DNA from: Verrucomicrobiales bacterium
GTDB taxonomy: Bacteria; Verrucomicrobiota; Verrucomicrobiia; Limisphaerales; J093
Reading direction: 5' to 3'
Assembly (NCBI GenBank): GCA_037439785.1
Contig: JBBIVJ010000001.1
Span: 97,207 to 161,206, forward strand
DNA: 64,000 nt
The stretch's first letter is position 1. Each line of letters opens with the position of its first letter. Positions 11,761 through 31,051 of the stretch are shown piece by piece. A model generated the notes under the pieces. It had not been told where the DNA came from. It saw only the letters and a program-made list of their open reading frames with translations, and ran no database searches. The translations under genes and the position numbers were made by a program.

Positions 11761-11843
11761 CGGAGACGTCGCGCCCGGCATTTCGGGATTGCCTTCGTCA
11801 CAGCAGCGGCCTACCGTGAGGGCGCTCTTTGACACGCGCCGGT

Positions 11844-12007: not shown

Positions 12008-12250
12008 CGGATGCCGCCCCGGGTGGGGTGGCATCGCTTCTCCGCAAAGAGAAGGATGAGGCCAGTTCGCCGGGCCGGCCCTGCCGGCTCGGTGGAATTT
12101 CACGGGAACGCCTTCCTTCGTGATTTGCCGGAGGAAGGCGTTGGCGTTTACGGGACGGCCGTCCCCGCCTACGCCGGCCCCGGTCTGGTCTCGCCGCACA
12201 CTCCAACCCGGCGGGGTGCTCCTGCGCGCCCCGCCACGCCGAGATCAGAC

Positions 12251-12955
12251 ATGAACGCTGCCACATACCTCGTTCGTTCCCTGACCGCCGCGGGTGCGGT
12301 GGTCGCCCTTGTCCCCTCCCAGTCCGCCGCCTCCTTCGACGACATCGCGTTCTGGGCCGGCACCGGCGCCCACCGCGCCGCCCTGGTGATTGACTGGCAG
12401 GACGCGCAGGCCCCGCCATCCCTGCTCTGGGGCTTTCGTTGGGACGGCACCGCCACCGGCCTGGACATGCTCACCGCAGTGATCCAGGCCGACCCCCGCC
12501 TCTTCGGCCACCTGGGCCAGTTCGGCTGGGGCACGGCCGTCTTCGGCCTTGGCTACGACTTGAACGCCAACGGCGTGTTTGCCGTGGCCCCGCCCCTGGC
12601 CTTCGACAGCGGCGGGCTGGCCGTGGACACCAATCCCGATGATGCCCGCGCGGCGGTGGATGACGGCGACCACTGGCGCGAGGGCTGGAACACCGGCTTC
12701 TGGGCCTACTACCTGAAGGGCTCCAGCGGCGAGGCCTGGGAGTCGGCCATGACCGGCGCTGCCGACCGCGTCCTGAGTGACGGCGCGTGGGACGGCTACA
12801 GCTTCGCCGCCGGCTTCGTCAGCGCGGCGCCGGGCGAACCGATGCCGGCGGCCGTGCCCGAGCCGGGCACCCTGGCCTTGCTGGCCCTGGGCGCTCTGGC
12901 GCTGGCCCGGCACTGGAAAGCGTCAAGCCGCCGCGATACTTCTGGCGTTTCATGA
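12251..12955 (+). CDS. PEP-CTERM-anchored secreted protein of unknown function, first gene after the B12 riboswitch
   Basis: Start trimmed to the ATG at 12251, giving signal peptide MNAATYLVRSLTAAGAVVALVPSQSAA. The C-terminus is VPEPGTLALLALGALALARHWKASSRR (PEP motif, TM helix, basic tail). Confidence 0.8.
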   Translation: MNAATYLVRSLTAAGAVVALVPSQSAASFDDIAFWAGTGAHRAALVIDWQDAQAPPSLLWGFRWDGTATGLDMLTAVIQADPRLFGHLGQFGWGTAVFGLGYDLNANGVFAVAPPLAFDSGGLAVDTNPDDARAAVDDGDHWREGWNTGFWAYYLKGSSGEAWESAMTGAADRVLSDGAWDGYSFAAGFVSAAPGEPMPAAVPEPGTLALLALGALALARHWKASSRRDTSGVS

Positions 12956-14544: not shown

Positions 14545-15314
14545 ACGCGAAGACCCGCGCGCACCGGGCATGTTGGGGGTGGCGAAGCCGGGGCTTCACG
14601 CTGGTCGAGTTGCTGGTGGTGGTGGCGGTGCTGGCGGTGCTGGTGGGCCTGCTGCTGCCGGCGCTGGCCCGCTCGAAAACCTCCGCCCGCAGCGTCGCCT
14701 GCCTGAATCACCTCCGCCAGATGGCCCTGGCGGCGCAGATGTACACGGATGCCCACCGGCAGTTCTTCCCGCCGGCCTACGCCCAGGCGGTCGAGGACGG
14801 CGTCACGGTGCTGCGGGCCTGGGATTTCACCACCCGGCCGGGACCGACGCCGCAGGTCACCGCCGGTCTGCTCTGGGAAGGCCTGCCGCCGCAGCAAATC
14901 CAGCAATGCCCGGCCTATCGCGGTCCGGCCAACTGGCTGGCCGATCCGCACACCGGCTACAACTACAACACCAGCTACCTCGGCCACGGCCAGCTCGAGA
15001 GCATCCCCGAACCGGCGCGCCTCTCCGACGTCAAGCAACCCGCCGCCACCGCCCTGTTCGGCGACGGTGAGTACGCCAGCGGCGCGAACAAATTCATGCG
15101 CGCCCCCTGGCCCAACCCCGGCGACGCCGGCTTCCGCGGCCGCTGGGCCGGGACGCAAGGGTACCGGCACGGGGGACGAAGCAACGTGGCGTTCTGCGAC
15201 GGCCACGCCGCGGCCTGGCGCGCGCGCTTCGCGGAGAATCAGGACGGCGCCGACCGCGTGGCGGACGGGACCGGTTTCCTGTCGGCGGACAACTCCCTGT
15301 ACGACCTGGATTGA
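14541..15314 (+). CDS. prepilin-type N-terminal cleavage/methylation protein, DUF1559 (HX9DG) family
   Basis: Contains GFTLVELLVVVAVLAVLVGLLLPALARSK and C-terminal HGGRSNVAFCDGH (H-X9-DG). The ATG overlaps the upstream stop (ATGA). Confidence 0.9.
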   Translation: MNAKTRAHRACWGWRSRGFTLVELLVVVAVLAVLVGLLLPALARSKTSARSVACLNHLRQMALAAQMYTDAHRQFFPPAYAQAVEDGVTVLRAWDFTTRPGPTPQVTAGLLWEGLPPQQIQQCPAYRGPANWLADPHTGYNYNTSYLGHGQLESIPEPARLSDVKQPAATALFGDGEYASGANKFMRAPWPNPGDAGFRGRWAGTQGYRHGGRSNVAFCDGHAAAWRARFAENQDGADRVADGTGFLSADNSLYDLD

Positions 15315-15347: not shown

Positions 15348-18300
15348 TCAGCGCAGGCGCATCCAGAAGCGGTAGAACCGGGTGGCGCCCGCGGGCCGTG
15401 GCAGTTCGACCTCGAACTCGTCGTTGCCCAGCGGGGTGGGGCCGATGCCGGTGGGGGCAAAGCCGCTGCTCAGGGTGTCCGCCGCCTCCACCACGAACTG
15501 GAAGTGGCCGGCGTAGGCGGCGGGGAACTTCCACTTCACGCCCAGCTTGCCGGCCGGTTTGAGCACCAGCTCGAGCGCCGGCGGCTGCAGCACCACCACG
15601 GGCCCGGTGCCCTTGATGGCTTTGTCATTGGGATCGGTGCCGTCGAGGAACTCCTGCAGGTTCGAGTAGCCGTCCCCGTCCTTGTCGCCGTGGGCGCCCT
15701 CGGCCAGGCCGCCGAAGAAGGCGCACTCGAAGTTGTCGGGCAGCAGGTCGCCGTCCGCGTCCACGACCGGGAGGGCGGGGATGGCGAGCACAATGGCGGA
15801 GAGGACTTCAAGGCCGCGGTCGGCGCAGTCGCCGGCGTCCCCATCGGCGTAGCCCACGACCTGGATCGTCGTGCCCGGCACCAGCTCGAAGTCGGGGAAG
15901 AGGTAGTTGCCCCCCTCGGCGAACCAGAGGCTCCAGGTCTGGGTACCATCGCTGAGCACCGTGCAGCCCTCGGGCATGGGATCGGGCAGGACGGTCAGGT
16001 GGAGCGTCACCTTGGGCCGGCTGAAATCGAGAGCCATCAACTCGGCGACGGCGTTCGCGGCGGCGAGGCGCTGCGCGGGGGTGAGCGTGGTGGCGGCCAG
16101 GTAATTCGAGTGCAGGGTGCCGGCGAACAGGAAATGGCGGAGCACTTCCACCGGCAGGGGGTACTGGCCGGGCGCGGCGTTGTTCGAGAGGCTGCTGATG
16201 CGGTACACGTCATCGGCAAGGGCGCGCAAGGCGGCGACGTTGGCGCCAGCGCCACCCACCGCGGCCAGCAGGCCCTGATGCACCGCGACCAGGCGGTGGG
16301 CCGGCTGGCCGGCCTGCTCCCGCTCGAGGGCGAGCAGGGCCGCACTGCCGGGGAAGTGCCGGTCCACATCGCCCGGTCGGGCGGGGAACAGGGTAAGCTG
16401 GTTGGTGGGCGGCAGGCCGCGCGCCTGCAGCAGCAGCTCGAACTTCCGCTCGGTGAGCAGGGCCACCAGCGTGTCCAACGGGCCGGGGGCGGTGATGACG
16501 CGGGTGCGCGGGCGGGCGGCGGCGGCGGCCTGGGAGGCGGCCCGCCAGGCGGCGGCCTGGGAGGCGGGCGTGCCCGGGCCGGGCGTGAAGTTCACCTCCA
16601 GTCCGGCGTCCTGCGAGGGGATGGGCTCAAGGGCGAGCAGTTCGCGGCCGAGGTTCTGGTCCGCCGCCGCGGTCTGGATGGGGAAGTGGGGATCGGTGGC
16701 CAGGGCCAGCAGGCGCTGGCGGTCGTCCACGCCGAGGTTGCGAAGGCGGGCGGCGGGGTTGAGCACGCCGGGCACGCCCAGGTTGGCGGTGAGGGCGGAG
16801 CCGAGGAGGTCGCCGGCCAGGTTGAAGGCGCGCACGGTCACCCCGGTGCGGGCCAGGGCCGGGCCGGGCACGGTACCGTCCAGCGGGCGCGGGGTAACGT
16901 ACAGGTCGAAGCCCGAGCCATCGTCCAGGCGCGGGCCGGCCGGGTGGCTGGCGGCGGCGTAGGGGTTGGAGCCGGCCACCAGTTCCTCGAGGTCATTGAA
17001 ACCGTCGCCGTCGGCGTCCTTGCCGCTGCTGACCGGGTCGAGTCCGGCCCCCAGCTCGAGGTAGTCGGGTGTGCCGTTGTTGTTGGCGTCCAGACCCACC
17101 TCGACGAAGTCCGGCACGCCGTCGTGGTCCGAGTCCAGTGTCCATTGGTCGGCCGGGAAGGTGTAGGTGGCGTGGCGGACGGGAGACTTGCGGGTGCTGC
17201 CGCCACCCTGCTGGGCGAAGTAGCTGACGGTGGTGTCGAAATAGACCGGGAAGGGCGCGGTGTAGGTGGACCAGGCGGCCACGGGGTTGGTGCGGTAAAA
17301 GATCGTGGCCCCGGCGAGCGAGGCGGTGAGGGTGATCTGGACCGCGGCGGGTTGCGGGCCGGGTGGCGGGCTGATGGTTACGTCGGCCACTTCATCGCCG
17401 CTGGGGGGCAGGAAGCTGAAGACCGAGATGGCCTCGTGGTACTGGTTGGCCAGACCGAAGGCCGCCGGCGGGGTGACGCGGGCCACGGTGCGGGGGGTGG
17501 GATTGCGCAGGCCCTGGGTGGTGCCCTGGAAGGTCTCCACCCGCACAGAGATTTGCGGCGGCGCCCCGCTGATCTGCGGCTGGGAGGTCCAATCCCCCGC
17601 CGCCAGCCGCTGCACCAGATTCGGCGCGGGCGCGACAAACGGCTCGAACTGGAACAGGAAGACGTTCGCCCCGCCGGCATGGCGGTTGAGCGTGTCCAGC
17701 GCGCCGCTCTCGGCCAGGGTGTACGGTCCGCTGCCCGCGCTGGTGTACCGGTGGAAACGCGCCGGGCGCCCCTCCGGACCGGAGAAGGCCACGAAGCCGT
17801 CCGCCGTGGCCACGGCGCCGCCGAAGCGTTCGCCCGCCGGCGCGGCCAGGGCCTGGAAGAGCGTGGGCGCGCTCGCGCCGTCGAAGTTCAGGATCACCGC
17901 CGTGGCGCCGCCGTGGCGCAGGGCCAGCAGCCGCCCGCCGCTGGCGGTGGGGATCACGAACAGCGCCTCGGCGTTGAAGCCCAGCGGGAAGGTCGAGCCG
18001 CCGCTCAGATTGAAGGAGCCCGGGGTGGGCTCGGCAACACGGCGATGGTGGATGCTGGCGGACCCCGCCGTGTGAAAGACGAAGTCGAAAAGGGCCGAGG
18101 CGGAGAAGCGGTGATTCAGCACCTGCGCGACATCGGGCACCCCGGCGATGGTGGCGACGTTGACCGGTGCTCCGGTGGCGAGGCTGACCAGGCGGAACTC
18201 ATCGCCCGCGCCGGCCGTGGCGACCAGGAGGCCGAGCACGTCGGCCACGCCGGTCATGAGCTGCGCGGGCTGGGCGCGCAGGACTTCGGCGGCCTCGGCG

Positions 18301-18848
18301 GCCTCGCCCAGGATGGAAAAGGCCGCGCCGGTCGAGCGCACCAGGGCGCGGCGGCGCGGGGCGGGCGGGTTGTTCAGGGCGGTGAGGATGTAGAGGTCGT
18401 GGTGGGCGGTGTTGCCGGCGCCGCCGATGTCCAGGGCCGCGACGTGGGCCGGGCCGATGCCGCCCATGTACACCTCGCGCGGCACGCCGTTGACCAGCGG
18501 ATCGTCGCAGGGGATGACCAGCACGCGGTTGGCGTCCGGACCGGCCAGCACCAGCGCGTCGCGCGCGGTGTCCAGCACCCGGCCGGCACTGACGCCGGTG
18601 ACACCGGTGACGCCCCCCGGTCGGGAAGCGGTCCATTGATGGCCGCCGCCCGCCTGGCCGTAGCCGATGAGGTAGGCGCCGGATTCGAGGTCCACCACGG
18701 CGGCGTCGGGCCGGCCGTCGCCGTTGAAGTCGGCGCTCAAGTAGGCGGAACCGGCGGAGAGAACCGGGTAAGCGGGTTGCGCGAGCAGCGCCGGCGACGC
18801 CAGCACGGCGGCGATCATCACCGTGGACAGGAAACGCAGCGTTCTCAT
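15348..18848 (-). CDS. giant secreted protein C (1166 aa): FG-GAP/VCBS-like, chitobiase-C-like and thrombospondin-type-3 Ca-binding repeats
   Basis: Start trimmed to the ATG at 18848 (MRTLRFLSTVMIAAVLASPALLAQP), which overlaps the stop of the upstream gene (ATGA at 18848-18845). Motifs are DFNGDGRPDAAVVD, ATIFYRTNPVAAWSTYTAPF, DSDHDGVPDFVE..DADGDGFNDLEE and DKDGDGYSNLQEFLDGTDPND. Ends in ...ATRFYRFWMRLR. Confidence 0.85.
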   Translation of the reverse strand: MRTLRFLSTVMIAAVLASPALLAQPAYPVLSAGSAYLSADFNGDGRPDAAVVDLESGAYLIGYGQAGGGHQWTASRPGGVTGVTGVSAGRVLDTARDALVLAGPDANRVLVIPCDDPLVNGVPREVYMGGIGPAHVAALDIGGAGNTAHHDLYILTALNNPPAPRRRALVRSTGAAFSILGEAAEAAEVLRAQPAQLMTGVADVLGLLVATAGAGDEFRLVSLATGAPVNVATIAGVPDVAQVLNHRFSASALFDFVFHTAGSASIHHRRVAEPTPGSFNLSGGSTFPLGFNAEALFVIPTASGGRLLALRHGGATAVILNFDGASAPTLFQALAAPAGERFGGAVATADGFVAFSGPEGRPARFHRYTSAGSGPYTLAESGALDTLNRHAGGANVFLFQFEPFVAPAPNLVQRLAAGDWTSQPQISGAPPQISVRVETFQGTTQGLRNPTPRTVARVTPPAAFGLANQYHEAISVFSFLPPSGDEVADVTISPPPGPQPAAVQITLTASLAGATIFYRTNPVAAWSTYTAPFPVYFDTTVSYFAQQGGGSTRKSPVRHATYTFPADQWTLDSDHDGVPDFVEVGLDANNNGTPDYLELGAGLDPVSSGKDADGDGFNDLEELVAGSNPYAAASHPAGPRLDDGSGFDLYVTPRPLDGTVPGPALARTGVTVRAFNLAGDLLGSALTANLGVPGVLNPAARLRNLGVDDRQRLLALATDPHFPIQTAAADQNLGRELLALEPIPSQDAGLEVNFTPGPGTPASQAAAWRAASQAAAAARPRTRVITAPGPLDTLVALLTERKFELLLQARGLPPTNQLTLFPARPGDVDRHFPGSAALLALEREQAGQPAHRLVAVHQGLLAAVGGAGANVAALRALADDVYRISSLSNNAAPGQYPLPVEVLRHFLFAGTLHSNYLAATTLTPAQRLAAANAVAELMALDFSRPKVTLHLTVLPDPMPEGCTVLSDGTQTWSLWFAEGGNYLFPDFELVPGTTIQVVGYADGDAGDCADRGLEVLSAIVLAIPALPVVDADGDLLPDNFECAFFGGLAEGAHGDKDGDGYSNLQEFLDGTDPNDKAIKGTGPVVVLQPPALELVLKPAGKLGVKWKFPAAYAGHFQFVVEAADTLSSGFAPTGIGPTPLGNDEFEVELPRPAGATRFYRFWMRLR

Positions 18849-21800
18849 GGCGTGGCCTCCACGACGTTGGTGGGGATGACCTCCTTGATCTCGCCATCCG
18901 GCCCGAGCCGGACGATGAGATAGACATACCGCGCGCCGGTGACCACAGGCTGAGTGTCCACGAGCCATAGGGCCCCGGGCAGTTCTCCGCCGCCAACAAT
19001 GACTCCATCAGTCACCCGGATGAACGGATCATGGATCACGGTCACCGGTCCGCGCTGCGGGTCGTTGGCAAACGCATGGGCGATCTCCTCCATCAGCGGC
19101 GTGACCTGGATCAGGTCGTAACCAACCTGCGGGTACTCCGGCGAAACGGCCTGGACGCGATAGACCACCGCCGGGAAGAGCTTTTCACCGAACTTGTTGG
19201 TGTACAGGTGGAACATCGGGTCGCGATGCAGGCGCAGGCTGGGCAGGTTCACCTCGGGCCGTTCCTTGGGCACGTTGACCAGGTCGCGGCGCGGCACCTC
19301 GCCAATGCGGATGGCCAGACCGGGGAAAATGTTGTCCGGCATCCGCGCGGCCTGGAGCGAGGGATGGAAGAAGTTCAGGTCCGGCAGCGGGCGCGCCGGC
19401 CAGGGCACCTCCGGACCGACCAGCGGCGGCACGTGCCAGCTCAGGGACTCGGCGTTGCTGTCCGGCCCGGGCACGCCATCGGGGCCGACGGCGGCCACCA
19501 TCACGGTGTATTCCTGGCCAAGGGCGATGTTGACGGTGACCTCGAACTGCGCGCCGTTGCCGAAGGCCGGGCCGACCGGCGGGGTGCGGTACAGGAAGAA
19601 GACGTTGGTGCGCGGTTCGTTGCCGACGAGGTACTGCTTGACCCGATTGGTGATCAGGGTGCCGAGGTCCGGCGAGGGATTGGGCGGCATGAAGCCGAGG
19701 GCGTTGGCGATGGAGACCTCGAAGCGGCTCACGCCGTAGGGCGGGCAGAACCAGCGCACCTTCATCTTCGGGCTGGACTCGTCCCCGACCGGCTCCAGGG
19801 GCGCCAGCAGGGGCACGGCCATCGGCATCTGGATTTCGATGCACTCGTCAATCTGCACCAGCGGGCTGGCGTTGCCGTGCTCGTCGAAGAGCTGGGCAAA
19901 GTAGCAGATGACCGCGGCGTTGGCCGGCATGTCCGGGTCCTGCACGGTGATCTGGGACACGTCGTCGAAGTTCGCCGGCCCCTGCTTGATGAGGGTGAGC
20001 GGGCCGTTGTCCACGCGGCGGTAAAGGCGGTACTCCTTGGTGCCGGGGGTGAGGGTGATGACAATGTCCGGGCCGACCACGCCGCCGTCCGGACCGTTGG
20101 GCTGCGGGTTGTGGGCGCCGCGGCAGGGGCCGAACTGGCCGGTGGCGGCGCTCCGGCGCGGGATTTTGCGGCAATCCACGCGCACGGCGAAGGGCACGCG
20201 GCGGATGGTGGTGGTCTTGGGGTCGCGGATGGTGGTAACGAAGACAAAGTCGGAAGTCTGGCCCTGGTCGTCCCCAGCCCGGCACCAGAACAGGATTTCC
20301 CCCTCCTGGACCTGGACGCGCGGGACGGTCCAGCGCCACACCAGCAACGGCTCCTGGGGCGGGAAATAAACGCGGCCCAGGAAGTTCGATTCCGTCAGGT
20401 CGCGGAAGTAGAACTCGGCCCAGCGGACCTCCGGCCGCTCGCGGCGCACCTCGAATTCGTAGTAGGCCAGGGCCGGGTCCTGGTTGCGGCCATCCGGGTC
20501 GTTGAAATCCACCGGGTCGCGCGGCACCACGGCGTAGGCGCAGCACATCACATCAATGCGCCCGCCGGGACCGTCCGGCCCGGTGCGGTCGCGCAACACG
20601 CCATAGACCGGCCGGCTGTGGGGGGAAAAGTTGCCGCCGCCGCAGGCACCGTTGTCCACCGAGCGGATGGTGTACCAGAAGGTCTTCGAGTAGTCGGCCG
20701 GCGCGGTGGGCGAGCCGGCGCCGTCGTCGAGGTAGCTGTACAGCGTTTGGCCCGGCACGTGAGGGAAGGGGCCGGCGATGCGGTTGAGCAGGGGGTTGCC
20801 GCCGGCGGCCTGGACGTCGTCCGGCGCGGCCCAGCGGTACACGTAATAGCCGGTGACGGTGTCGGTGGTGTTGGTGTTGGGGCGCCAGAGCACCTTGAGC
20901 TTCTGCTTCGCCGCGCCGCCGGTATAGGTGTAGTCGTTTTCGACCCGCACGGCGAGGGGGGCGTCCGGCGGCAGGCGGTCGCACACGGTCACCAGCAGGC
21001 CGGGGGAAGGGCTCCAGTCGCGGCCGAGCACGTCCCGGGAGGTGACGAAGTAGTAGAACTGCGCGCCGTTCTCGAAGGGGACGCCCCCGGGCTGGTAGCG
21101 GCCGTTGTCGTCGGCCAGAAAGGCGGTCCTGGGGTCGAGCGCAAAGTTGGCGACATCCGCGGCGGAGAAGTCCCGGGTCTTGAGCACGGGCAGTTCGTTG
21201 ATGCGCTTGACGGCGGGGTGGGACTGAGCGGCCTGCCGCAGCACGTCGGCCGATGGCGGGGTGGTGTGCCAGCCCTGGGCCTCGGCGTGGGCCTTGGTCA
21301 CGCGATAGACGTTGAAGCCGTGGTTGAGCAAGGTGAGCCGGCGCAGGGCGTCCGGCGCGGCCCAGCGGAGCTTGACGTTGAGGTCGCCGCGCGGGTCGGT
21401 CTCGGGCACCTGGACCACCGGGCCGGGACGGGGCAGGGCCACGGGGACGCCGGCGGTGACGGTGACGCGGCCGACCACGCCCAGGTCGCGGTCGTTGGCC
21501 TTGTCGTACTCGCGAATCTCGAAGGTGGTCTGGCCGGCGGGGATGACCTCGGCGTGGGCGTAGCCGAGGCAGAAGTTCACGCCCGGATGCAGCCGACCCA
21601 GCAGGACCAGGTTGTTGAGCCGGGCCGGGTCCTCGAGACTGCCGCGGATGGCGGCGGAGAGTTTCACCTCCAGCGGGCCGGCCGGCGGCTGGAGGGCGGC
21701 GAAGAGGTTGTTGACCCGCACTTCGAGCCGGGGGAGGTCCTCGCCGATCGAGACCGCGCGGTTGAGGAGGGCGCGGATGACCGGCGGCTCGGTCTGCAGG

Positions 21801-22084
21801 CTGGTGATGGCGCGGCGCTCGAAGGGCTGGGTCGAGTCGGCCGCCCCGGCCTTGGCATAGACGGCGAAGCTGCGGCCCAGGACCAAATGGTTGTCCGAGC
21901 CGACCCAGAGCAGGTAGGCCCAGTGGCGGCCGGCGGCGTCGGTGGTGGTGGTGCCGACGGTGAAGATGGTGTCGGGCAACAGGGCCGGTTGGGCCAGGCC
22001 GCGGCCGGCGCCGGCACCCGACAGCAGCAGCGCGGCGAGCACCGCTCCGCGCATCCCAACCCGACTGAATCGGCTCCGGCACAT
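18845..22084 (-). CDS. giant secreted protein B (1079 aa) with several Fn3-like modules
   Basis: Start trimmed to the ATG at 22084 (MCRSRFSRVGMRGAVLAALLLSGAGAGRGLAQP), 2 nt after the stop of gene A. The longer listed ORF would overlap gene A. Fn3-like signatures are KLRWAAP...GFNVYRV, KVLWRPN...VTGYYVYRW, KEYRLYRRVDNGP and KVRWFCPP. Confidence 0.85.
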   Translation of the reverse strand: MCRSRFSRVGMRGAVLAALLLSGAGAGRGLAQPALLPDTIFTVGTTTTDAAGRHWAYLLWVGSDNHLVLGRSFAVYAKAGAADSTQPFERRAITSLQTEPPVIRALLNRAVSIGEDLPRLEVRVNNLFAALQPPAGPLEVKLSAAIRGSLEDPARLNNLVLLGRLHPGVNFCLGYAHAEVIPAGQTTFEIREYDKANDRDLGVVGRVTVTAGVPVALPRPGPVVQVPETDPRGDLNVKLRWAAPDALRRLTLLNHGFNVYRVTKAHAEAQGWHTTPPSADVLRQAAQSHPAVKRINELPVLKTRDFSAADVANFALDPRTAFLADDNGRYQPGGVPFENGAQFYYFVTSRDVLGRDWSPSPGLLVTVCDRLPPDAPLAVRVENDYTYTGGAAKQKLKVLWRPNTNTTDTVTGYYVYRWAAPDDVQAAGGNPLLNRIAGPFPHVPGQTLYSYLDDGAGSPTAPADYSKTFWYTIRSVDNGACGGGNFSPHSRPVYGVLRDRTGPDGPGGRIDVMCCAYAVVPRDPVDFNDPDGRNQDPALAYYEFEVRRERPEVRWAEFYFRDLTESNFLGRVYFPPQEPLLVWRWTVPRVQVQEGEILFWCRAGDDQGQTSDFVFVTTIRDPKTTTIRRVPFAVRVDCRKIPRRSAATGQFGPCRGAHNPQPNGPDGGVVGPDIVITLTPGTKEYRLYRRVDNGPLTLIKQGPANFDDVSQITVQDPDMPANAAVICYFAQLFDEHGNASPLVQIDECIEIQMPMAVPLLAPLEPVGDESSPKMKVRWFCPPYGVSRFEVSIANALGFMPPNPSPDLGTLITNRVKQYLVGNEPRTNVFFLYRTPPVGPAFGNGAQFEVTVNIALGQEYTVMVAAVGPDGVPGPDSNAESLSWHVPPLVGPEVPWPARPLPDLNFFHPSLQAARMPDNIFPGLAIRIGEVPRRDLVNVPKERPEVNLPSLRLHRDPMFHLYTNKFGEKLFPAVVYRVQAVSPEYPQVGYDLIQVTPLMEEIAHAFANDPQRGPVTVIHDPFIRVTDGVIVGGGELPGALWLVDTQPVVTGARYVYLIVRLGPDGEIKEVIPTNVVEATP

Positions 22085-22086
22085 GG

Positions 22087-25000
22087 CTAGAAGTCCACCT
22101 CCCAGGAGTTGTTGTGATATTCGAGGCCCACGCTCTTCGAGAACGAGATGCAGAACGGGCACCAGCCGATCTCGCCGTAGAGCTTGCCCGAGCCCTTGAG
22201 GCGCAGGCCGTCGGCGTTTTTCACGCCCACCAGCTTGATCTCGCCGCCCACGCTGACCAGGCAGAGCACATCGCCGTTGGCCCCGAGCAGCATCTTGCCC
22301 ACAAAGGTCGGGCCCTCGACGAAGTAGCCCACGCCCGCCCCGGCGCCGGCGGAGACCTGGAAAAAGCAGGTGGCCGGGATGCCCAGCAGGGCCTCGGAGA
22401 CCGGAATCCACACCTCGACGTACACGTAGGCCCCGGTGAAGGGCGGGTTGCCGAGGATGCCCTGGACGTCCGGGTCCCAGAAGAACGGGTCCAGCGTGCA
22501 GGTCTTGCCAAAGAACAGGCCGCCCATGCCCTCGTACTTGTTGATGGCCACGCGGGCGGCGCAGGAGAAGAAGTTCTCGAGCTGGCCGAAGCCCATCGAG
22601 GCACCGAGGTACTTGATCTTGAAGGCTTCGAAGTTGATTTCTCCGGTCAGCTCGATGCCGCCGCCCAGGTTGATCAGTCGCGGCGGGGAGAACGCCGGGT
22701 CAAAGGTGAACTTGGCGCCCACGTTGGCGCGCACGCCATCGCTGATCCATTTCACCTCCACGTCGGTCGCGCCCATGGTGACCTCGGTGGCGCGGCCGCT
22801 GGTCGGCAGGCAGGCGGCGGGCGTGCCGTCCGAGTCCAGTTCCTTGATCTGGAAGAAGGCGTTGAACTCCATCTCCGACGGCACCTTGAGCTGGGCGTAA
22901 AGGTCCAGGCGCAGGAGCTTGAGGGCGTCGCCGTTGATGTGGGCGTAGCCGTTGATGCGCCCGGCGCCCAGCACGCTGTTCACGTCGTCGGCCAGGCCGT
23001 TGATCGTGTTGTCCACCTCGGCGAGTGATTCGGAGATGATGTCACGGATGACCTGGTTGACCTGCTGGAAGAGCGAGTCCACCCCCTCGCGGATGGCAGC
23101 CTCGACGTCGTAGAGCCGGTGCTTGATGGTTTCCTGGAAGGTCTTGGCGACCACCGAGGCGAAGAAGCGGTCCTCGAGCTTCTGCCGCATGTAGGCGCGC
23201 AACTCGGCCTTCGAGTAGTGCACGAAGGGGTGGTCGCCGAGGCTGAGCATCTGGTTGAAGCGGGCGTTGATGTCGTTGCGGAGCTGGTTGGCCACGCCGA
23301 TGACCTGGGCGTTGAGGGCGTTGAGCTGGGCCTTGAGTTGCTGGCGGAAATCGCCCGGCAGGGCCAGGGCCTCGCGGATGTTGCCCACCACACCGCGCAG
23401 TTCGGCCAGCGCGGCCTCGATCTGGCTGAGGGTGGGGTCGAGCGTGGCCAGGAACTCGTTGAGCTTGCTGTCCACAAAGGCGCCGATGAACTGAGCGGCC
23501 AGCTCGCCGACCAGATTTTTGATGAGCTGGGCCACGATCTGGCGGGAGCCGTCCGGCGCCTTGGCGAGTATCTGGTCCAGTTTCTGCAGCGCGTCCTCGA
23601 CCTGGGCCAGGCTCGTGTCGAGCTGCTTGACGATGTCGAACTGGCCCGCGCCCGCGCCGTCCACCAGGTTGTTCAGGCGGTTGACCACCGAGTTGCCGCC
23701 GCCGGTGAGGAAGGCCGCGATGGTGGTGCCGGGTTCGCCGGCCGGGAAGCTGTTGCCGTTGGCCTGATAGATCGCCTTGAGCTGCTCATAGAGCGCGTCG
23801 AAGACCGGGTCGAGCAGGGTGTCGAAGGCCTGGTCGTAGAAGACATGCATCTGGTCCTGCAGCATCTCGTTGAACCGCTCCATGCCGGCATCGAGGGCGT
23901 CCCGCGCCGGGGCCAGCACCGCGCCGGTGAAGGCGTCCTGCACGCCGCCCAGCTCGTTGAAGACCATGTTGGCCAAGTTGATCTTGGGCAGGCCCTCGTA
24001 CTCGATGCCGAACTTCAATTCGGCGTTTTTCGCGCTGAGGTACTTGGCCTGGTGCTCGACGGTGACCACCAGCAGCTTGTTCTCCACCGGCTTGAAGATG
24101 GTGAAGGCGCGGGTGGTGGTGCTCCACTTCAGCGGGTAGTCAAAGTCCACGACTCCCAGCCAGTTCCGCTGGGCGCGCACGAGATACTTCAGGTTGCCGT
24201 CGGTGTTGCCCTGCCGGTAGCCGGCCACGGTGGTGTCAGTGGGGAAGCCGCGGTTGTCCGGGTCGGCCGGGTTGGCGTTGAAGAAGTTCTGGCCGCCGAT
24301 TTCGAAGCCTTTGCCGGGCCAGCCGCCCATCAGATAAATGGGCGCGCCGGTGCCGTCCTTGTCCGCGCTGGTGTGCAGGTGGACCTTGAGGTCCTCGAAG
24401 AAGGGCACGTCCAGTTTGCCGGCGATGTTGATGAAGCCGGGGGCGGTCTTGTAGAAATCCCAGTTGTTGTAGTAGGCGTCGTTGACCGGGGTGAAGGTGT
24501 ACTGCTCGCTGCCCGGGCCTTTCAGCTTGAAGCTGTTGGGCAGCTTGAGCCGCGAGTCAAACGGCGGGTCCAGCGCGTTGTCCTCGCGGGTGATGAGGTT
24601 GCCGTTGGGATGCCAGCCCAGTGTGCCAAACAGCGGGGCGTCCACGTGCTGCGCCCAGGCCATCACGCCCACGGTGAGAAAGCCCTCGCCCGGGTTGCAG
24701 GCGGCGGCGGCCTTGCGATCGAACTTCATCGTCAGCGGCGTGAAGTCCGCCTGCCAGAAGGCCAGCACCTTGTTCTCCTGGCCGGGGACGACCTTGGCGT
24801 CGTCCAGCGCGCCCAGGCAGGTGAACCTGAGCTCCTCGAAGGCCAGGGTGAAGTCCGAGGGAGGCTTGATCTTCACCGAGCCCTGGGTGCGGCTGTCCAC
24901 GTTGCGGCTGTCCAGGAACGACAGGCCGAAGTTCGAGAACTGGAAGTCGTAGCCGTAAATCTGCGCCGTGGGCGGGAAGGCGCCGAAGACCGCCTCGTGG

Positions 25001-27399
25001 ATGCCGCTGACGCCGGCCTTGCGCACGTAGTACTTGGCCCGGCCCCTTAGTGGGTAGGTGCCGGTGGGCTTGCCGCCCAGCACGCTCTCGCCGTTCTTCG
25101 CGCCATCGGTGCCCACGCGGAAATTCAGGCCGGGATAATCCCCCAGACCCACCTGGTAGGCCGGCTGGCCGGGACGCTCCACCTGCCCCGGGTCATCCGG
25201 TCTGACGCCGGTGAAGAGCAGCACCCCGGGACGCAGCAGTGCGTTGAGGGTGGTGTCATCGCCGCGCAGGAACGAACCGGCCATGGCGTAGGTCGTGGCC
25301 GTGAAAGGCTCCGTGCGATGGGCGTACTTCTGGATGGCGGGCAGGCCGATCCAACCCCAGGTCAACGGCGCGGCGGTGGTGAGCGTGCCCGGGCGGGTCA
25401 GACCGGCGTCGCGCGTGATGTGGAGAATATCGCCGTCAGGCTTGAATTCGAGCGTGGCTGGCCCGGCACCGCCGCTGCACAGCGGCTCGGCGCAGTCACG
25501 GGCATATTGGAGGGTCAGTGGCTGCGCTCCGTTGACCCGGCTGACCGCACTGTCCACCAGATCGTCCTTGACCGACAGCACCCCGCCGCCGTGGCGCACC
25601 CCGGAGTCGTAGGGGAAATGTGTCGCGAACCCGCCGGGCCCGAGGTCAAACTCCGCGAACAGCCGGGCCGAGCCGTCGGTGTGCGTGCGGATTTCCACGG
25701 TGCTCGAGGTGACGGCGCGGACAGCCTGGAAGAGCCGCTCGTTTGACCGCTTGGACCGCTGCGCGGCCGGCACCGGAGCCGCGGCCAGGCGGGCCCATTC
25801 ATTGCTGCGGACATACTCGCAGCGGCCGGTGGGTTTGAGCGCAAACCGTCCGTTGGCGACGGTCCAGCCCAGCTCCTGCCCCTCGATCCAGACCGGCTTG
25901 GTCTCCTCGGCGCCCCAGAGACCCGTGGGCGTGGTGAAAACCAGGCTCGCCGAGGCGGGCCGTAGATTCTGCGCCAGCCTGATGTTGCTGAACTCGATGA
26001 ACCCGGTGGTCATGCGGGAGTTGGGCGCCGGCCGGATGCCAAAGCCCGCCGGCAGCCAGACCTTGAAGTTGGCGAAGCCCCCGCCGGTGTTCAGCACCAT
26101 GCCCGAGCGCTGGAAGCGCACGTTGGCCACGGAGTTCGTGTCCGGCGCAGGGCCGCTGACCGCCACGTTCGCAGCACCGGTGTACTCGGCGTTGCCGTTG
26201 TTGCGCAGCAGCACCGACAGCGCCGCGCCGGTGCCGTAGGTGTGTGCCGGGCCGCCCTCGATGAACCCGCCCCCTGCCGCCACCGCCAGGGTGCTGGCCA
26301 CGCTGGTGGCGGTGACCGCGCCGGCGGCGGGGTTGTTGTTGATGGCGGCGACCTGCGTGGCGATGTCGCCGAAGAACAGCCGGCCGTTGAAGTGCAGCAT
26401 CCGCTGGTTGGCCAGTGTGACCTGGTTGGCCGCGACGAACGGCAGCAACGGCGTTTCCTCGTGAGCAAGCTGGACCTGCACCCGGTACAGCCGCCCGGGA
26501 GAGTCGAGCTGGCCGGCGGGCTTGAGATTCAACACCTCATTGCCCGTGACCACTGTGGGCGGAATGGGGTTCCCCAACAGCGCGATCCCGTGCGAGGCCA
26601 CGGTGCGCGAGGCGGTGAAGTTGCTTTGCACCAGCGGCACCGGCAGGCCGGTGGTGGCGTCAACGAGCGTGGCCGTGAACCGCAACGGGATGGAGGTGTT
26701 GACCGGCGCCGCCGCGAAGCCGTCGTAGCGGCGCAGGGTGAAGTCCGCCCGCACCTGAAGGGTGTCCCGGCCGGGGATGGTGTTGACCAGGTAGGTGCGC
26801 TGGTAGGTGCCGCTGTCCAGCACGGCAAGGACATTGCGGGCGGCGTCCGCGCTGTCGGTGCTGGGGAAGTGGTAGTAGGTGCGCAGGCTGTCCTGGCCGG
26901 TGGCGGCGATGGAGGAGTACCGCCCGCCGGCGGTGCTGGCCTTCTGCATGGTCACCCCCACCCGGTACTGGGTGAAGGGGCTGAGCCGGTTCACCGGCAC
27001 CAAGGGAGCGTCGTAGGTGCCCAGGGTCGTGTTGATCGTGATGCCGAAGATCGTAAAAGGCAGGGTGATCGAAGTGCTGACCCGGTACACGGTGTTGCTG
27101 AGCCCGTTCTCGTCCAGGACCGGCACGACATTCCCCGCCGCATCCTCCAGGCGGAACAGGATGCGGTAGTAATAGGTCTGCGTGGTGGCGCTGGCGGCGG
27201 TGAACCGGATTTGCGCCCGGGCGGCGATGTTCTCCCGGTTGTACTCCGGCCCCAGACCGGCGTTCGCGTCCGAGGCAATCAGGTAGCCCGTGTAGTTGGT
27301 CACCGTGACCGACTGCACCAACTCGGTGTGGGCCCACCCTGCTAACGTGCCCAGGAGGGCCACACAGACCCTCCCCGCCGGGTGGAACGCGCGCTTCAT
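22087..27399 (-). CDS. giant secreted protein A (1770 aa), no recognisable domain; long helical segment and Gly/aromatic-rich C-terminus ending in Phe
   Basis: Uninterrupted 5.3-kb ORF with signal peptide MKRAFHPAGRVCVALLGTLAGWAHT. Residues about 1130-1440 are alanine/leucine/glutamine-rich and look helical (LNNLVDGAGAGQFDIVKQLDTSLAQVEDALQKLDQILAK...). The C-terminus is ...GWCPFCISFSKSVGLEYHNNSWEVDF. Confidence 0.85.
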   Translation of the reverse strand: MKRAFHPAGRVCVALLGTLAGWAHTELVQSVTVTNYTGYLIASDANAGLGPEYNRENIAARAQIRFTAASATTQTYYYRILFRLEDAAGNVVPVLDENGLSNTVYRVSTSITLPFTIFGITINTTLGTYDAPLVPVNRLSPFTQYRVGVTMQKASTAGGRYSSIAATGQDSLRTYYHFPSTDSADAARNVLAVLDSGTYQRTYLVNTIPGRDTLQVRADFTLRRYDGFAAAPVNTSIPLRFTATLVDATTGLPVPLVQSNFTASRTVASHGIALLGNPIPPTVVTGNEVLNLKPAGQLDSPGRLYRVQVQLAHEETPLLPFVAANQVTLANQRMLHFNGRLFFGDIATQVAAINNNPAAGAVTATSVASTLAVAAGGGFIEGGPAHTYGTGAALSVLLRNNGNAEYTGAANVAVSGPAPDTNSVANVRFQRSGMVLNTGGGFANFKVWLPAGFGIRPAPNSRMTTGFIEFSNIRLAQNLRPASASLVFTTPTGLWGAEETKPVWIEGQELGWTVANGRFALKPTGRCEYVRSNEWARLAAAPVPAAQRSKRSNERLFQAVRAVTSSTVEIRTHTDGSARLFAEFDLGPGGFATHFPYDSGVRHGGGVLSVKDDLVDSAVSRVNGAQPLTLQYARDCAEPLCSGGAGPATLEFKPDGDILHITRDAGLTRPGTLTTAAPLTWGWIGLPAIQKYAHRTEPFTATTYAMAGSFLRGDDTTLNALLRPGVLLFTGVRPDDPGQVERPGQPAYQVGLGDYPGLNFRVGTDGAKNGESVLGGKPTGTYPLRGRAKYYVRKAGVSGIHEAVFGAFPPTAQIYGYDFQFSNFGLSFLDSRNVDSRTQGSVKIKPPSDFTLAFEELRFTCLGALDDAKVVPGQENKVLAFWQADFTPLTMKFDRKAAAACNPGEGFLTVGVMAWAQHVDAPLFGTLGWHPNGNLITREDNALDPPFDSRLKLPNSFKLKGPGSEQYTFTPVNDAYYNNWDFYKTAPGFINIAGKLDVPFFEDLKVHLHTSADKDGTGAPIYLMGGWPGKGFEIGGQNFFNANPADPDNRGFPTDTTVAGYRQGNTDGNLKYLVRAQRNWLGVVDFDYPLKWSTTTRAFTIFKPVENKLLVVTVEHQAKYLSAKNAELKFGIEYEGLPKINLANMVFNELGGVQDAFTGAVLAPARDALDAGMERFNEMLQDQMHVFYDQAFDTLLDPVFDALYEQLKAIYQANGNSFPAGEPGTTIAAFLTGGGNSVVNRLNNLVDGAGAGQFDIVKQLDTSLAQVEDALQKLDQILAKAPDGSRQIVAQLIKNLVGELAAQFIGAFVDSKLNEFLATLDPTLSQIEAALAELRGVVGNIREALALPGDFRQQLKAQLNALNAQVIGVANQLRNDINARFNQMLSLGDHPFVHYSKAELRAYMRQKLEDRFFASVVAKTFQETIKHRLYDVEAAIREGVDSLFQQVNQVIRDIISESLAEVDNTINGLADDVNSVLGAGRINGYAHINGDALKLLRLDLYAQLKVPSEMEFNAFFQIKELDSDGTPAACLPTSGRATEVTMGATDVEVKWISDGVRANVGAKFTFDPAFSPPRLINLGGGIELTGEINFEAFKIKYLGASMGFGQLENFFSCAARVAINKYEGMGGLFFGKTCTLDPFFWDPDVQGILGNPPFTGAYVYVEVWIPVSEALLGIPATCFFQVSAGAGAGVGYFVEGPTFVGKMLLGANGDVLCLVSVGGEIKLVGVKNADGLRLKGSGKLYGEIGWCPFCISFSKSVGLEYHNNSWEVDF

Positions 27400-27618
27400 G
27401 GCCTGGTCGGGTTGTTTAGGAATGCCAGAACACTAAGTAGTGAGGGGAGACCATTCGCATCTTGATTGCAAGCGAAAAATCGGCCTGCTGCATTGCAACC
27501 GGCAGTGACCAAGGTCGGTCCACGGTTTGCCGGCGGTCCAGCAGCGGCCGGGTGGAGGGCGCCGCGGGCGGGGTGGGCGTGGTTTGCAGTGGCCGGGCGG
27601 GGCCGCTAGCCTGCGCGC

Positions 27619-30911: not shown

Positions 30912-31051
30912 GGCCGACCCAAGGTAGCAGATGCCGCGTCCGTAAACCAGCGCGGTGGCGGCGGCCCGGGCGGGGGGCGCGGTCATGGTTTTGTCACTGG
31001 ACGACCCCGGCGGGGAGGATTATCATGTGCGTTGTCAAGCGGACGTGTACC

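What the first reader, a model, noticed from the sequence alone, without database searches (positions are those of the whole stretch)
15348..27399. Translationally coupled operon of three giant signal-peptide proteins with no recognisable machinery: candidate novel surface or extracellular system
Three consecutive minus-strand ORFs of 1770, 1079 and 1166 aa span about 12 kb, roughly 19% of the window. A 2-nt gap separates the first two (TAG 22089-22087, ATG 22084-22082). The second and third overlap by ATGA (18848-18845). They are therefore almost certainly one transcript with coupled translation. Each starts with a plausible Sec signal peptide. I recognise only generic modules:
- Protein B has Fn3-like blocks (FNVYRV, GYYVYRW, EYRLYRR).
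- Protein C has FG-GAP/VCBS-like DFNGDGRPD, a chitobiase-C-like block and thrombospondin-type-3 DxDxDG calcium repeats.
- Protein A has nothing I can name.
No T1SS, T5SS, chaperone-usher, pilus or toxin partner is adjacent. The upstream intergenic region (27400-27618) is the most AT-rich stretch nearby and is shared with a divergent peptidoglycan-recycling gene. A dedicated three-component extracellular assembly of unknown function is the simplest reading.
Basis: partly seen in the sequence, partly recalled or inferred. Interest (0 to 1): 0.78.

Follow-up and report, generated by a model that had tools for sequence, protein, structure and literature searches.

The report
Conserved three-gene envelope protein cassette
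Three very large secreted proteins of unknown function form a strictly conserved, self-contained gene trio in Verrucomicrobiota and Kiritimatiellota, and the largest appears to anchor itself in the outer membrane, so this is probably an undescribed cell-envelope or cell-surface complex.

Summary
Three minus-strand genes, A (1770 aa), B (1079 aa) and C (1166 aa), lie at the stated coordinates with a 2-nt gap (A/B) and an ATGA overlap (B/C).

The trio is a genuine unit. In every one of about 80 related loci with enough flanking DNA, the order A, B, C is kept on one strand, and no neighbouring gene is conserved. Hosts are Verrucomicrobiota and Kiritimatiellota. A's conserved C-terminal 1020 aa recurs in 721 protein clusters, always at the C-terminus.

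No curated family (Pfam, NCBIfam, PADLOC, PHROGs) or PDB sequence explains A or B.

- **A:** variable Ig-like N-terminus, conserved beta-rich core, about 320 aa of helices with 11-residue periodicity, then a 16-strand amphipathic beta-meander ending in WxVxF. Structure search matches outer-membrane barrels, and coevolution analysis confirms the strand order.
- **B:** a rod of about nine Ig/Fn3-like domains.
- **C:** a weak FG-GAP match, an Ig-like domain and calcium-binding TSP3 repeats.

Best reading (about 0.5): an outer-membrane-anchored three-protein complex, probably surface-exposed and adhesive. Orientation, barrel closure, complex formation and function are untested.

The parts
27400..27618 (.). 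Intergenic region upstream of gene A, shared with the divergent NamZ-fusion gene. The 100 nt next to A's start (27400-27500) is 51.5% GC. It is the presumed promoter region.
   Evidence: No sigma-70 consensus was found.
22087..27399 (-). Gene A: 1770-aa secreted protein, the predicted outer-membrane-anchored subunit.
27331..27399 (-). A residues 1-23: Sec-type signal peptide (MKRAFHPAGRVCVALLGTLAGWA|HTE).
   Evidence: Sequence inspection. Conserved in homologues.
25150..27330 (-). A residues 24-750: less conserved, beta-rich N-terminal region. In other family members its length varies from about 700 to 1950 aa and it carries HYR, He_PIG, MAM-like or PPC modules.
   Evidence: Residues 1-570 were not modelled.
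23950..25149 (-). A residues 751-1150: the most conserved beta-rich core (motifs SGIHEAVFG, LDSxNVDSRT, DPPFDSRLKLPN, VPFFEDLKVHLHTSA, MGGWP, RAQRNWLGVVD). It matches no known family.
22981..23946 (-). A residues 1152-1473: alpha-helical region with long helices (1152-1213 and 1416-1473) and coherent 11-residue (3.67) hydrophobic periodicity. It gives weak apolipoprotein, phasin and Baculo_PEP_C-type matches.
22090..22971 (-). A residues 1477-1770: 16 long amphipathic beta-strands, a predicted outer-membrane beta-barrel ending ...SWEVDF.
   Evidence: AF2 model. Foldseek hits to FimD, BtuB, porins, EspP and VDAC. Alternating hydrophobicity. Coevolution of every consecutive strand pair.
18845..22084 (-). 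Gene B: 1079-aa secreted protein. It has an N-terminal beta domain with a helical insert (residues 100-173), then about nine Ig/Fn3/MG-like beta-sandwich domains. It is the most widely detected of the three.
15348..18848 (-). Gene C: 1166-aa secreted protein. Its start overlaps B's stop (ATGA).
17439..18761 (-). C residues 30-470: region with FG-GAP-like motifs (DFNGDGRPD), a possible beta-propeller.
   Evidence: Pfam FG-GAP_3 E 0.0013, below cut-off. Partial homologues carry FG-GAP repeats. No structure model was made.
17193..17369 (-). C residues 494-552: chitobiase/hexosaminidase C-terminal-type Ig-like domain.
   Evidence: Pfam CHB_HEX_C_1 20.8 bits against a cut-off of 22. It passes in several homologues.
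16944..17156 (-). C residues 565-635: bacterial thrombospondin type-3 calcium-binding repeats (DSDHDG, DADGDG).
   Evidence: Pfam TSP3_bac 30.5 bits against a cut-off of 25. Motifs.
15618..15761 (-). C residues 1030-1077: second TSP3 repeat block (DKDGDG), followed by a C-terminal beta-rich domain.

Best explanation
**What it is.** The three genes are one co-transcribed, translationally coupled cassette. It encodes a three-protein cell-envelope complex anchored in the outer membrane by protein A.

**How it would work.** All three proteins cross the inner membrane through Sec.
- **A** is inserted into the outer membrane through its C-terminal 16-strand beta-barrel, which ends in a BAM-type WxVxF signal. 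The ~320-aa helical stalk, the conserved core and the variable Ig-like N-terminal modules hang from that anchor.
- **B** is a rod of about nine Ig/Fn3-like domains.
- **C** has an FG-GAP-like region, an Ig-like domain and calcium-binding TSP3 repeats.
- B and C are made in fixed proportion with A and bind to it.

**Most likely role.** The variable N-terminal end of A faces outward, and the complex acts in adhesion or capture of particles or polymers.

**What is shown.** The genes, their coupling and their invariant synteny. The restriction to two related phyla. The lack of any known family. The beta-meander topology of A's C-terminus. The domain make-up of B and, in part, of C.

**What is inferred.** Closure of the barrel and its insertion in the outer membrane. 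Physical association of A, B and C. Orientation and function.
For: **Gene organisation**
- Junctions are TAG-cc-ATG and ATGA.
- A, B, C order on the same strand is kept in every locus with enough DNA among 89 loci.
- The flanks are unrelated.
- Whole cassettes are duplicated as units in several genomes, for example L026 and L047 on one chromosome.

**Family size.** 721 clusters at 50% identity match A's conserved C-terminal 1020 aa, and in the 150 best, the only ones listed, the match ends at the protein's C-terminus. B has 295 or more clusters.

**Evidence for the barrel**
- AF2 predicts 16 strands of 11-16 residues after a 58-residue helix.
- Foldseek returns outer-membrane barrels from both PDB and BFVD, with probability up to 0.99.
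- Hydrophobicity alternates with period 2.
- The C-terminal F is nearly invariant, with W at -5 and V at -3.
- An independent coevolution analysis of 167 sequences ranks every consecutive strand pair from 1-2 to 14-15 above background, with antiparallel register.

**Hints of outward orientation.** The N-terminal part of A is the least conserved and varies in length. In longer relatives it carries HYR, He_PIG, MAM-like and PPC modules, which are typical of extracellular proteins.

**Partner proteins.** The B model has pLDDT 86 and resembles Fn3/Ig/MG arrays. C's TSP3 repeats pass the Pfam threshold.
Against: - Foldseek E-values for the barrel hits are weak (0.007-0.2) and TM-scores are low. The model's pLDDT in that region is only about 55-80.
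- The best Foldseek hit is the open amphipathic beta-belt of ApoB100, not a barrel.
- Coupling between the first and last strands, which would show barrel closure, was not detectable because both strands are nearly invariant.
- The barrel region and its loops are unusually conserved and cysteine-rich for an outer-membrane barrel.
- No evidence shows how B and C would cross the outer membrane.
- No direct evidence exists that A, B and C bind each other.
- TSP3 and Ig-like domains also occur in periplasmic proteins.
Confidence: 0.5

Rival explanations
1. Periplasm-spanning envelope scaffold. A's barrel sits in the outer membrane, but the helical stalk, the conserved core, the N-terminal domains and both B and C stay in the periplasm. 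The complex would then link or space the outer membrane relative to the cell wall or inner membrane. This is the logic of the OmpM/SlpA connectors, which have a periplasmic domain, a coiled-coil stalk and a C-terminal barrel.
For: - The default topology of an N-terminal domain followed by a barrel with an even number of strands is periplasmic.
- A has a long helical stalk directly before strand 1 with non-heptad coiled-coil-type periodicity.
- The cassette contains no exporter for B and C.
- The Deinococcus SlpA complex (8agd) is among the Foldseek hits.
- The SlpA/OmpM architecture is described in PMC9388160 and PMC10628300.
- The core and barrel are highly conserved, as expected of internal machinery.
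Against: - No SLH, OmpA_C, LysM or other peptidoglycan-binding domain was found in A, B or C.
- The cassette is absent from many genomes of the phylum and duplicated in others, which is unlike core envelope machinery.
- The swapped N-terminal modules (HYR, MAM-like, PPC, He_PIG) are typical of extracellular proteins.
Confidence: 0.25
2. The C-terminal region is not a membrane barrel. A would be a secreted or periplasmic lipid- or hydrophobic-surface-binding protein built like an apolipoprotein. Its amphipathic 11-mer helices and open amphipathic beta-sheet would coat a lipid particle, a vesicle or a hydrophobic substrate, with B and C as partners.
For: - The top Foldseek hits are ApoB100 (E 1e-6 and 1e-5), with a faint hit to MTP.
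- The helical region gives recurrent weak matches to apolipoprotein A1/A4/E, ApoLp-III and phasin.
- The helical region has a strong 3.67-residue periodicity, as in lipid-binding 11-mer helices.
- Barrel closure is not demonstrated.
Against: - The ApoB100 alignments have TM-scores of only 0.04-0.10 over more than 1300 columns, so they reflect generic 'long strands plus helices'.
- All the apolipoprotein and phasin matches are far below family cut-offs.
- The terminal WxVxF motif, the 16 strands of membrane-spanning length and the many porin/usher/TonB-receptor hits fit an outer-membrane barrel better.
Confidence: 0.1
3. The three proteins are co-regulated but do not form one assembly. They would be, for example, three independent secreted binding proteins or enzymes kept together only for shared expression.
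For: No physical interaction was tested. Multi-domain Ig/Fn3/TSP3 proteins are common as stand-alone surface proteins in these phyla, as in the flanking genes seen.
Against: - Order, orientation and tight coupling are invariant across two phyla down to 33-35% identity, and the flanks are completely unrelated.
- The three genes duplicate together.
- In the top hits of the homologue searches, B and C relatives are full-length and keep the same architecture. Every locus examined carried the whole trio, wherever the contig had room.
Confidence: 0.1
4. A Tc-toxin-like or other three-component toxin or defence system.
For: There are three large consecutive genes, and one has an FG-GAP-like region, as TcB proteins do.
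Against: - No RHS/YD repeats, no TcA/TcB/TcC, SpvB or VRP1 families, no PADLOC hit and no real phage-family hit were found.
- All three proteins have Sec signal peptides.
- The cassette shows no mobile-element context.
Confidence: 0.03

Closest known systems
Type V secretion: classical autotransporters (Va) and patatin-like/two-partner types (Vd/Vb)
   Same: A is a single polypeptide with a Sec signal peptide and a large N-terminal region. A long alpha-helix ends 3 residues before the first strand of a C-terminal beta-barrel that finishes with an aromatic residue. The strand count of 16 equals that of the Vb/Vd barrels.
   Different: There is no sequence match to Autotransporter (PF03797), Omp85/Bac_surface_Ag or POTRA families. 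The barrel has 16 strands, not the 12 of type Va. No beta-helix passenger is present, and the N-terminal part is beta-sandwich-rich and contains conserved cysteines. Two obligatory partner genes, B and C, have no counterpart in type V systems.
OmpM / SlpA outer-membrane-to-cell-wall connectors (PMC10628300, PMC9388160)
   Same: The architecture is similar: a periplasmic N-terminal part, a long helical stalk and a C-terminal beta-barrel. The SlpA complex appears among the Foldseek hits.
   Different: A has no SLH domain and no sequence similarity. Its N-terminal part is far larger. Those connectors belong to other phyla (Deinococcota, Negativicutes) and have no B or C partners.
Chaperone-usher pili (FimD usher)
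   Same: The best barrel hit in the PDB is FimD (probability 0.99). B is made of Ig-like domains, as pilus rods are.
   Different: No usher, chaperone or pilin families were found. FimD has 24 strands plus plug and periplasmic domains. B is one covalent chain of domains, not polymerised subunits.
Integrin-like and thrombospondin-type-3 adhesion proteins of bacteria (Myxococcus CglD, MtsD; Akkermansia Amuc_1099 family)
   Same: C has TSP3 calcium-binding repeats and an FG-GAP-like N-terminus. It gives weak NCBIfam matches to MtsD, CglD and Amuc_1099_fam.
   Different: All those matches are far below the family cut-offs and cover only the 20-60-residue TSP3 repeats. No VWA domain is present. None of those systems has A- or B-like partners.
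Alpha-2-macroglobulin / complement C3-C5 MG-domain arrays
   Same: The B model aligns with MG/Fn3 arrays of C3, C5, A2M and TEP1 (E 1e-10 to 1e-7).
   Different: TM-scores are low (about 0.1). B has no thioester motif, no thioester, CUB or bait region, and is much shorter. The same model matches titin, MyBP-C and cytokine receptors equally well, so the similarity is generic to beta-sandwich chains.

Membership tests
Classical autotransporter (type Va) | C-terminal 12-strand barrel recognised by Pfam Autotransporter (PF03797) | tested here: not met
   There is no Pfam hit on the whole protein, on the isolated 294-aa C-terminus, or in 16 family members. The model has 16 strands.
Classical autotransporter (type Va) | Alpha-helical linker immediately before the barrel | tested here: met
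   Helix 1416-1473 ends 3 residues before strand 1, which starts at 1477. Whether it lies inside the pore cannot be told.
Classical autotransporter (type Va) | Passenger exported to the cell surface through or with the barrel | not testable with these tools
   This needs surface proteolysis or labelling. There is only indirect support, from extracellular-type modules in relatives.
Two-partner / patatin-like type V (Vb, Vd) | Omp85-type 16-strand barrel with POTRA domain(s) | tested here: not met
   No Bac_surface_Ag, ShlB or POTRA hits were found. Only the strand number agrees.
Outer-membrane beta-barrel protein (generic) | Even number of antiparallel amphipathic strands of membrane-spanning length in a meander | tested here: met
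   There are 16 strands of 11-16 residues with period-2 hydrophobicity. Consecutive-strand coevolution is seen in 167 sequences.
Outer-membrane beta-barrel protein (generic) | C-terminal beta-signal (terminal aromatic residue, hydrophobic at -3 and -5) | tested here: met
   The protein ends ...SWEVDF. F is nearly invariant, V1768 is invariant and W1766 is conserved.
Outer-membrane beta-barrel protein (generic) | Closure of the sheet (first strand paired with last) | tested here: inconclusive
   Strand 1-16 coupling is at background level (z 2.5). Both strands are almost invariant, so no signal is possible. Model coordinates could not be inspected.
OmpM/SlpA connector | N-terminal SLH domain binding cell-wall polymer | tested here: not met
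   No SLH hit in A, B or C.
Chaperone-usher pilus | Usher (PF00577), periplasmic chaperone (PF00345) and pilin subunits | tested here: not met
   None was found in the cassette or in conserved flanks.
Tc (ABC) toxin | TcA pore-former, and a TcB/TcC RHS cocoon with YD repeats | tested here: not met
   No such Pfam or NCBIfam hits were found, and there are no YD-type motifs.
Bacterial alpha-2-macroglobulin | Thioester motif CxEQ and thioester domain | tested here: not met
   No CxEQ motif in A, B or C. No A2M or TED Pfam hits.
Bacterial TSP3 repeat proteins (PF18884) | DxDxDG-type calcium-binding repeats scoring above Pfam's cut-off | tested here: met
   C scores 30.5 bits against a cut-off of 25, in two blocks. 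The motifs are at residues 572, 611 and 1055. This is a repeat, not a functional family.
Amuc_1099 family pilus-like system protein (NF042425) | Full-length match above NCBIfam's cut-off of 50 bits | tested here: not met
   The score is 40.5 bits, and the best stretch covers only residues 1054-1076, which are a TSP3 repeat.
FG-GAP / integrin-alpha-type beta-propeller | Seven FG-GAP blades | tested here: inconclusive
   One repeat scores E 0.0013-0.026, below the cut-off.

The most novel reading that the evidence does not exclude
The cassette is a previously undescribed envelope machine specific to Verrucomicrobiota and Kiritimatiellota. In one version, A's conserved 16-strand barrel, with its invariant lumen-facing loop and disulfides, is a dedicated translocon that also exports and displays B and C, making a self-contained 'three-partner' secretion and display pathway distinct from types I-XI. 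In the other version, A is a bacterial apolipoprotein-like lipid-handling protein.
Probability: 0.15. Interest if true: 0.85.

Novelty: new variant of a known kind. Interest (0 to 1): 0.56.

Why it matters
About 12 kb and 4000 residues of coding capacity are kept as an invariant trio in hundreds of lineages of Verrucomicrobiota and Kiritimatiellota. These are abundant polysaccharide degraders of soil, water, sediment and gut. Yet none of the three proteins belongs to any curated family, and all are annotated 'hypothetical'.

If the trio is an outer-membrane-anchored surface complex, it would be a major uncharacterised determinant of how these bacteria attach to particles, polymers or other cells. 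It would also add a new architecture to the small set of ways in which diderm bacteria display giant proteins.

The work makes the question testable. It names the probable anchor domain and the conserved core. It also names two cultured carriers: Luteolibacter marinus NBU1238 and Pontiellaceae bacterium B12219.

Tried and rejected
**Family scans**
- Pfam and NCBIfam on whole proteins, on six fragments and on 16 family members gave only sub-threshold helical noise for A and nothing for B.
- PADLOC and PHROGs gave only helical noise, namely tape-measure and LeoA matches. Defence and phage origins were rejected.

**Sequence searches against solved structures**
- For A, only coiled-coil hits.
- For B, none.
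- For C, EF-hand-like hits to the TSP3 block.

**Structure searches**
- Foldseek of the A model against viral structures returned only porin-like hits.

**Conserved neighbours**
- Clustering about 2260 flank ORFs from 83 loci found none. Two-component regulators lie directly beside the cassette in about 9 loci, and DUF1559 prepilin-like genes in 5. Both are abundant families.

**Specific families rejected**
- Tc toxin and alpha-2-macroglobulin ideas were rejected by motif and family tests.

**Technical failures and limits**
- The first coevolution run was dominated by gap artefacts and was redone without gapped columns.
- The first representative search failed because the profile exceeded 1200 positions and was rerun with A 751-1770.
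- Three literature searches found no description of this cassette.
- A model of C and of A residues 1-570 could not be made because only two structure jobs were allowed.
Full report
**1. The observation**

The window is about 70% GC. Three long minus-strand ORFs occupy 15348-27399, and their third-position GC of 0.84-0.92 marks them as real coding frames.
- A is 22087-27399 (1770 aa).
- B runs from ATG 22084 to 18845 (1079 aa).
- C runs from ATG 18848 to 15348 (1166 aa).

A's TAG is followed by 'cc' and B's ATG. B's TGA overlaps C's ATG as ATGA. GGAGG motifs precede both internal starts. Longer mechanical ORFs exist for B and C, but homologue N-termini support the shorter starts.

Each protein begins with a basic, hydrophobic, AxA-type Sec signal peptide that is conserved across homologues, and none has a lipobox. 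This was judged by eye, since no predictor was available.

The 100 nt upstream of A is 51.5% GC against 69.5% for the window. No sigma-70 consensus and no internal terminator stand out.

**2. Is it a unit?**

A's close homologues are few in the word-indexed search: 24 clusters, all full length. B has at least 295 clusters.

Nine contexts fetched through A or B homologues all show three consecutive genes of about 1750-1940, 1070-1180 and 1150-1280 aa, with completely different neighbours. The 4-nt B/C overlap is kept in 7 of the 8 distinct loci.

A scan of one genome per species with the B profile gave at least 246 relatives.
- The 80 best are Verrucomicrobiota: Limisphaerales/Pedosphaera, Verrucomicrobiales, Opitutales, Puniceicoccaceae and Chthoniobacterales, including the cultured Luteolibacter marinus NBU1238.
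- Others are Kiritimatiellota: Pontiellaceae B12219 and Kiritimatiellales.
- A few bins carry other labels (Bifidobacterium, Cyanophyceae, Rhodobacteraceae and others). These are probably mis-binned. For example, L043 gives almost the same hit coordinates and scores as the Verrucomicrobia contig L071.

tblastn of A, B and C on all 89 loci shows A upstream and C downstream of B, on the same strand, in every locus with enough DNA.
- The one variation is a Pontiellaceae MAG (L068). There an unrelated 2124-aa protein with an InlB B-repeat sits between A and B.
- Several genomes carry two complete cassettes, for example L026 and L047 on one chromosome.

Clustering of flank ORFs found no conserved neighbour. 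Two-component regulators are directly adjacent in about 9 of 83 loci, and DUF1559 prepilin-like genes, which are very abundant in these phyla, in 5. The cassette is therefore self-contained. The peptidoglycan-recycling neighbour in this window (beta-lactamase fold plus NamZ) is incidental.

**3. What the proteins look like**

No curated family covers A or B.
- Pfam gives only a sub-threshold Baculo_PEP_C match in A's helical part, and NCBIfam gives nothing meaningful.
- PDB sequence-profile searches give only coiled-coil noise for A and nothing for B.
- PADLOC and PHROGs are negative.

*Protein B.* An AF2 model from 60 sequences has mean pLDDT 86. It shows an N-terminal beta domain with a helical insert (residues 100-173), followed by about nine beta-sandwich domains. 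Foldseek returns titin/MyBP-C, cytokine receptors, Fn3 arrays and the MG arrays of C3, C5 and A2M, at E down to 6e-15 but with TM-scores near 0.1. So B is a generic chain of Ig/Fn3-like domains. It has no thioester motif.

*Protein C.*
- TSP3 calcium-binding repeats pass Pfam's cut-off.
- A chitobiase-C-type Ig domain scores just below cut-off.
- An N-terminal FG-GAP-like motif scores below cut-off.
- More distant relatives share only the N-terminal half and carry FG-GAP and PD40 repeats.
- Matches to Amuc_1099_fam, MtsD and CglD are below cut-off and cover only the TSP3 repeats.

*Protein A.* Conservation along the protein is highest at 751-1150 and 1401-1770. A profile of 751-1770 finds 721 clusters at 50% identity (423 at E<=1e-30). 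In all of the best 150 this module is at the C-terminus, behind an N-terminal part that varies from about 700 to 1950 aa. Long variants carry HYR, HYR_4C, He_PIG, MAM-like and PPC modules there.

The AF2 model of 571-1770 is only moderately confident, with pLDDT 62. It shows three parts:
- a beta-rich part up to about residue 1135;
- long helices at 1152-1473;
- 16 strands of 11-16 residues at 1477-1770, with mostly short connections.

Evidence on the C-terminal sheet:
- After two low-TM ApoB100 hits, Foldseek returns a long list of outer-membrane barrels: FimD, BtuB, porins, EspP, VDAC, SprA and the SlpA complex, with probability up to 0.99 and E 0.007-0.2. Porins appear again in the viral library.
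- The strands show alternating hydrophobicity.
- The protein ends ...SWEVDF, with F, V and W conserved. This is the pattern of the signal recognised by the BAM insertase (established knowledge of outer-membrane proteins).
- To test the topology independently of AF2, I ran a mean-field coevolution analysis on 167 family C-termini (Neff 150). Every consecutive strand pair from 1-2 to 14-15 scored above background (z 3.6-8.6 against 2-3). The top pairs have antiparallel register, for example 1492-1520, 1495-1517 and 1503-1511.
- Closure of the sheet, meaning strand 1 pairing with strand 16, gave no signal. Both strands are almost invariant, so the test is uninformative.
- The conserved loop 1634-1653 couples with strands 8 and 12, and C1530 couples with C1634. 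Both fit a curved, closed sheet with a loop folded over it, but they do not prove it.

The helical region has a coherent 3.67-residue (11/3) hydrophobic periodicity: power 16 against 2.9 at 3.5. It gives recurrent weak apolipoprotein and phasin-type matches.

**4. How it most likely works**

*Shown:* a coupled three-gene unit inherited and duplicated as a whole; three Sec substrates; a beta-meander of membrane-spanning strands with a BAM-type C-terminus in A; an Ig/Fn3 rod in B; calcium-binding repeats in C.

*Inferred:*
- A is inserted in the outer membrane by its C-terminal barrel.
- Its stalk, core and variable N-terminal modules project from that anchor.
- B and C, made in fixed ratio by coupled translation, bind to it.

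I favour an outward-facing adhesion or capture complex, for three reasons. The part of A farthest from the anchor is the least conserved. It swaps extracellular-type Ig-like modules. The cassette is accessory and sometimes duplicated.

The main rival is a periplasm-facing scaffold built on the OmpM/SlpA logic (PMC9388160, PMC10628300). It is supported by the default topology of N-terminal domains before a barrel and by the lack of any exporter for B and C. It is weakened by the absence of any cell-wall-binding domain.

A third reading takes the ApoB100 hits and the 11-mer helices at face value: an apolipoprotein-like lipid binder with an open sheet. I rate it low because those matches are generic and far below thresholds.

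**5. Comparison with known systems**

The nearest analogies are listed below. Every family with a testable defining feature fails membership; details are in the membership table.
- Type V autotransporters: helix then C-terminal barrel in one chain. A fails on barrel family, strand number and POTRA domains.
- OmpM/SlpA connectors: A has no SLH domain.
- Chaperone-usher systems: no usher, chaperone or pilins.
- Bacterial TSP3/integrin-like adhesion proteins: only the repeat is shared.

Neither is met; the synteny test is passed decisively. Its statement that no machinery is recognisable needs amending, because A carries a probable anchor or pore of its own.

**6. Novelty and verdict**

The cassette is real, widespread within two related phyla, and uncharacterised. 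All named homologues are 'hypothetical protein', and three literature searches found nothing.

In kind it resembles barrel-anchored giant surface proteins with accessory subunits, so I rate it a new variant of a known kind. There is a 15% chance that it is something categorically new, either a self-contained export and display pathway or a lipid-handling machine.

Function remains inferred, and localisation and interaction experiments in Luteolibacter marinus or the Pontiellaceae isolate would settle it. Interest is 0.56.

Noticed in passing
window 22981-23946 (A residues 1152-1473): The ~320-residue helical region of A has a coherent 11/3 (3.67-residue) hydrophobic periodicity: power 16 against 2.9 for the heptad 3.5. 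The two longest helices peak near 3.8. This points to hendecad/pentadecad-type coiled coils or lipid-surface 11-mer helices rather than ordinary heptad coiled coils.
   Followed up: partly
L068 1435-7806: In one Pontiellaceae MAG an unrelated 2124-aa protein is inserted between A and B. It carries an InlB B-repeat domain and glycine-rich repeats, and B-C follow it directly. It is the only break in A-B adjacency seen.
   Followed up: partly
L026 and L047 (both on OZ260084.1); also L025/L049 (JBGATF01), L030/L053 (DITU01), L045/L050 (PXBO01), L078/L080 (REEB01), L081/L083 (JAFIGH01): Several genomes carry two complete, diverged A-B-C cassettes, so the trio duplicates as a unit.
   Followed up: partly
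L003, L008, L031, L034, L050, L054, L061, L065, L073 flanks: Histidine-kinase or LuxR-type response-regulator genes lie within about 60-460 nt of the cassette in about 9 of 83 loci. This may be regulation in a subset of lineages, or chance, given how common these families are.
   Followed up: partly
L023, L033, L042, L043, L055, L060, L063, L024, L036: Contigs carrying the cassette are deposited in MAGs labelled Cyanophyceae, Bifidobacterium, Rhodobacteraceae, Acidoferrum and Limnocylindria. L043 ('Bifidobacterium') gives almost the same hit coordinates and scores as a Verrucomicrobia contig (L071). These labels look like binning or naming errors.
   Followed up: partly
window 11823-12011 (+): A cobalamin riboswitch (79.5 bits) lies upstream of a 585-aa ORF (12787-14544) that has no Pfam match, so it may be an unrecognised B12-related uptake or binding protein.
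   Followed up: no
window 14541-15314 (+) and 30009-31019 (-): Two DUF1559/N-terminal-methylation (prepilin-like) genes lie near the cassette, one convergent just 33 nt from C's stop. The family is abundant in these phyla and is next to the cassette in only 5 of 83 loci.
   Followed up: partly
window 27619-30018 (+): A single 799-aa ORF fuses a beta-lactamase-fold domain to a complete NamZ exo-beta-N-acetylmuramidase, an unusual peptidoglycan-recycling fusion.
   Followed up: no
window 8507-10836 (+): Adjacent AIR-carboxylase-like (LarB-type) and nickel-insertion (LarC) genes suggest synthesis of the nickel-pincer cofactor.
   Followed up: no
window 48000-51000: GC drops to 58-62% against about 70% elsewhere. 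The ORFs here include a CarboxypepD_reg-domain protein and a radical SAM protein, followed by an 827-aa CHRD-domain protein (52045-54528). This may be horizontally acquired DNA.
   Followed up: no
window 62154-62225 (+): ARAGORN calls a 72-nt tRNA-Ser(CGA) that Rfam's tRNA model does not report at gathering score. It is short for a serine tRNA, so it is probably a false positive.
   Followed up: no
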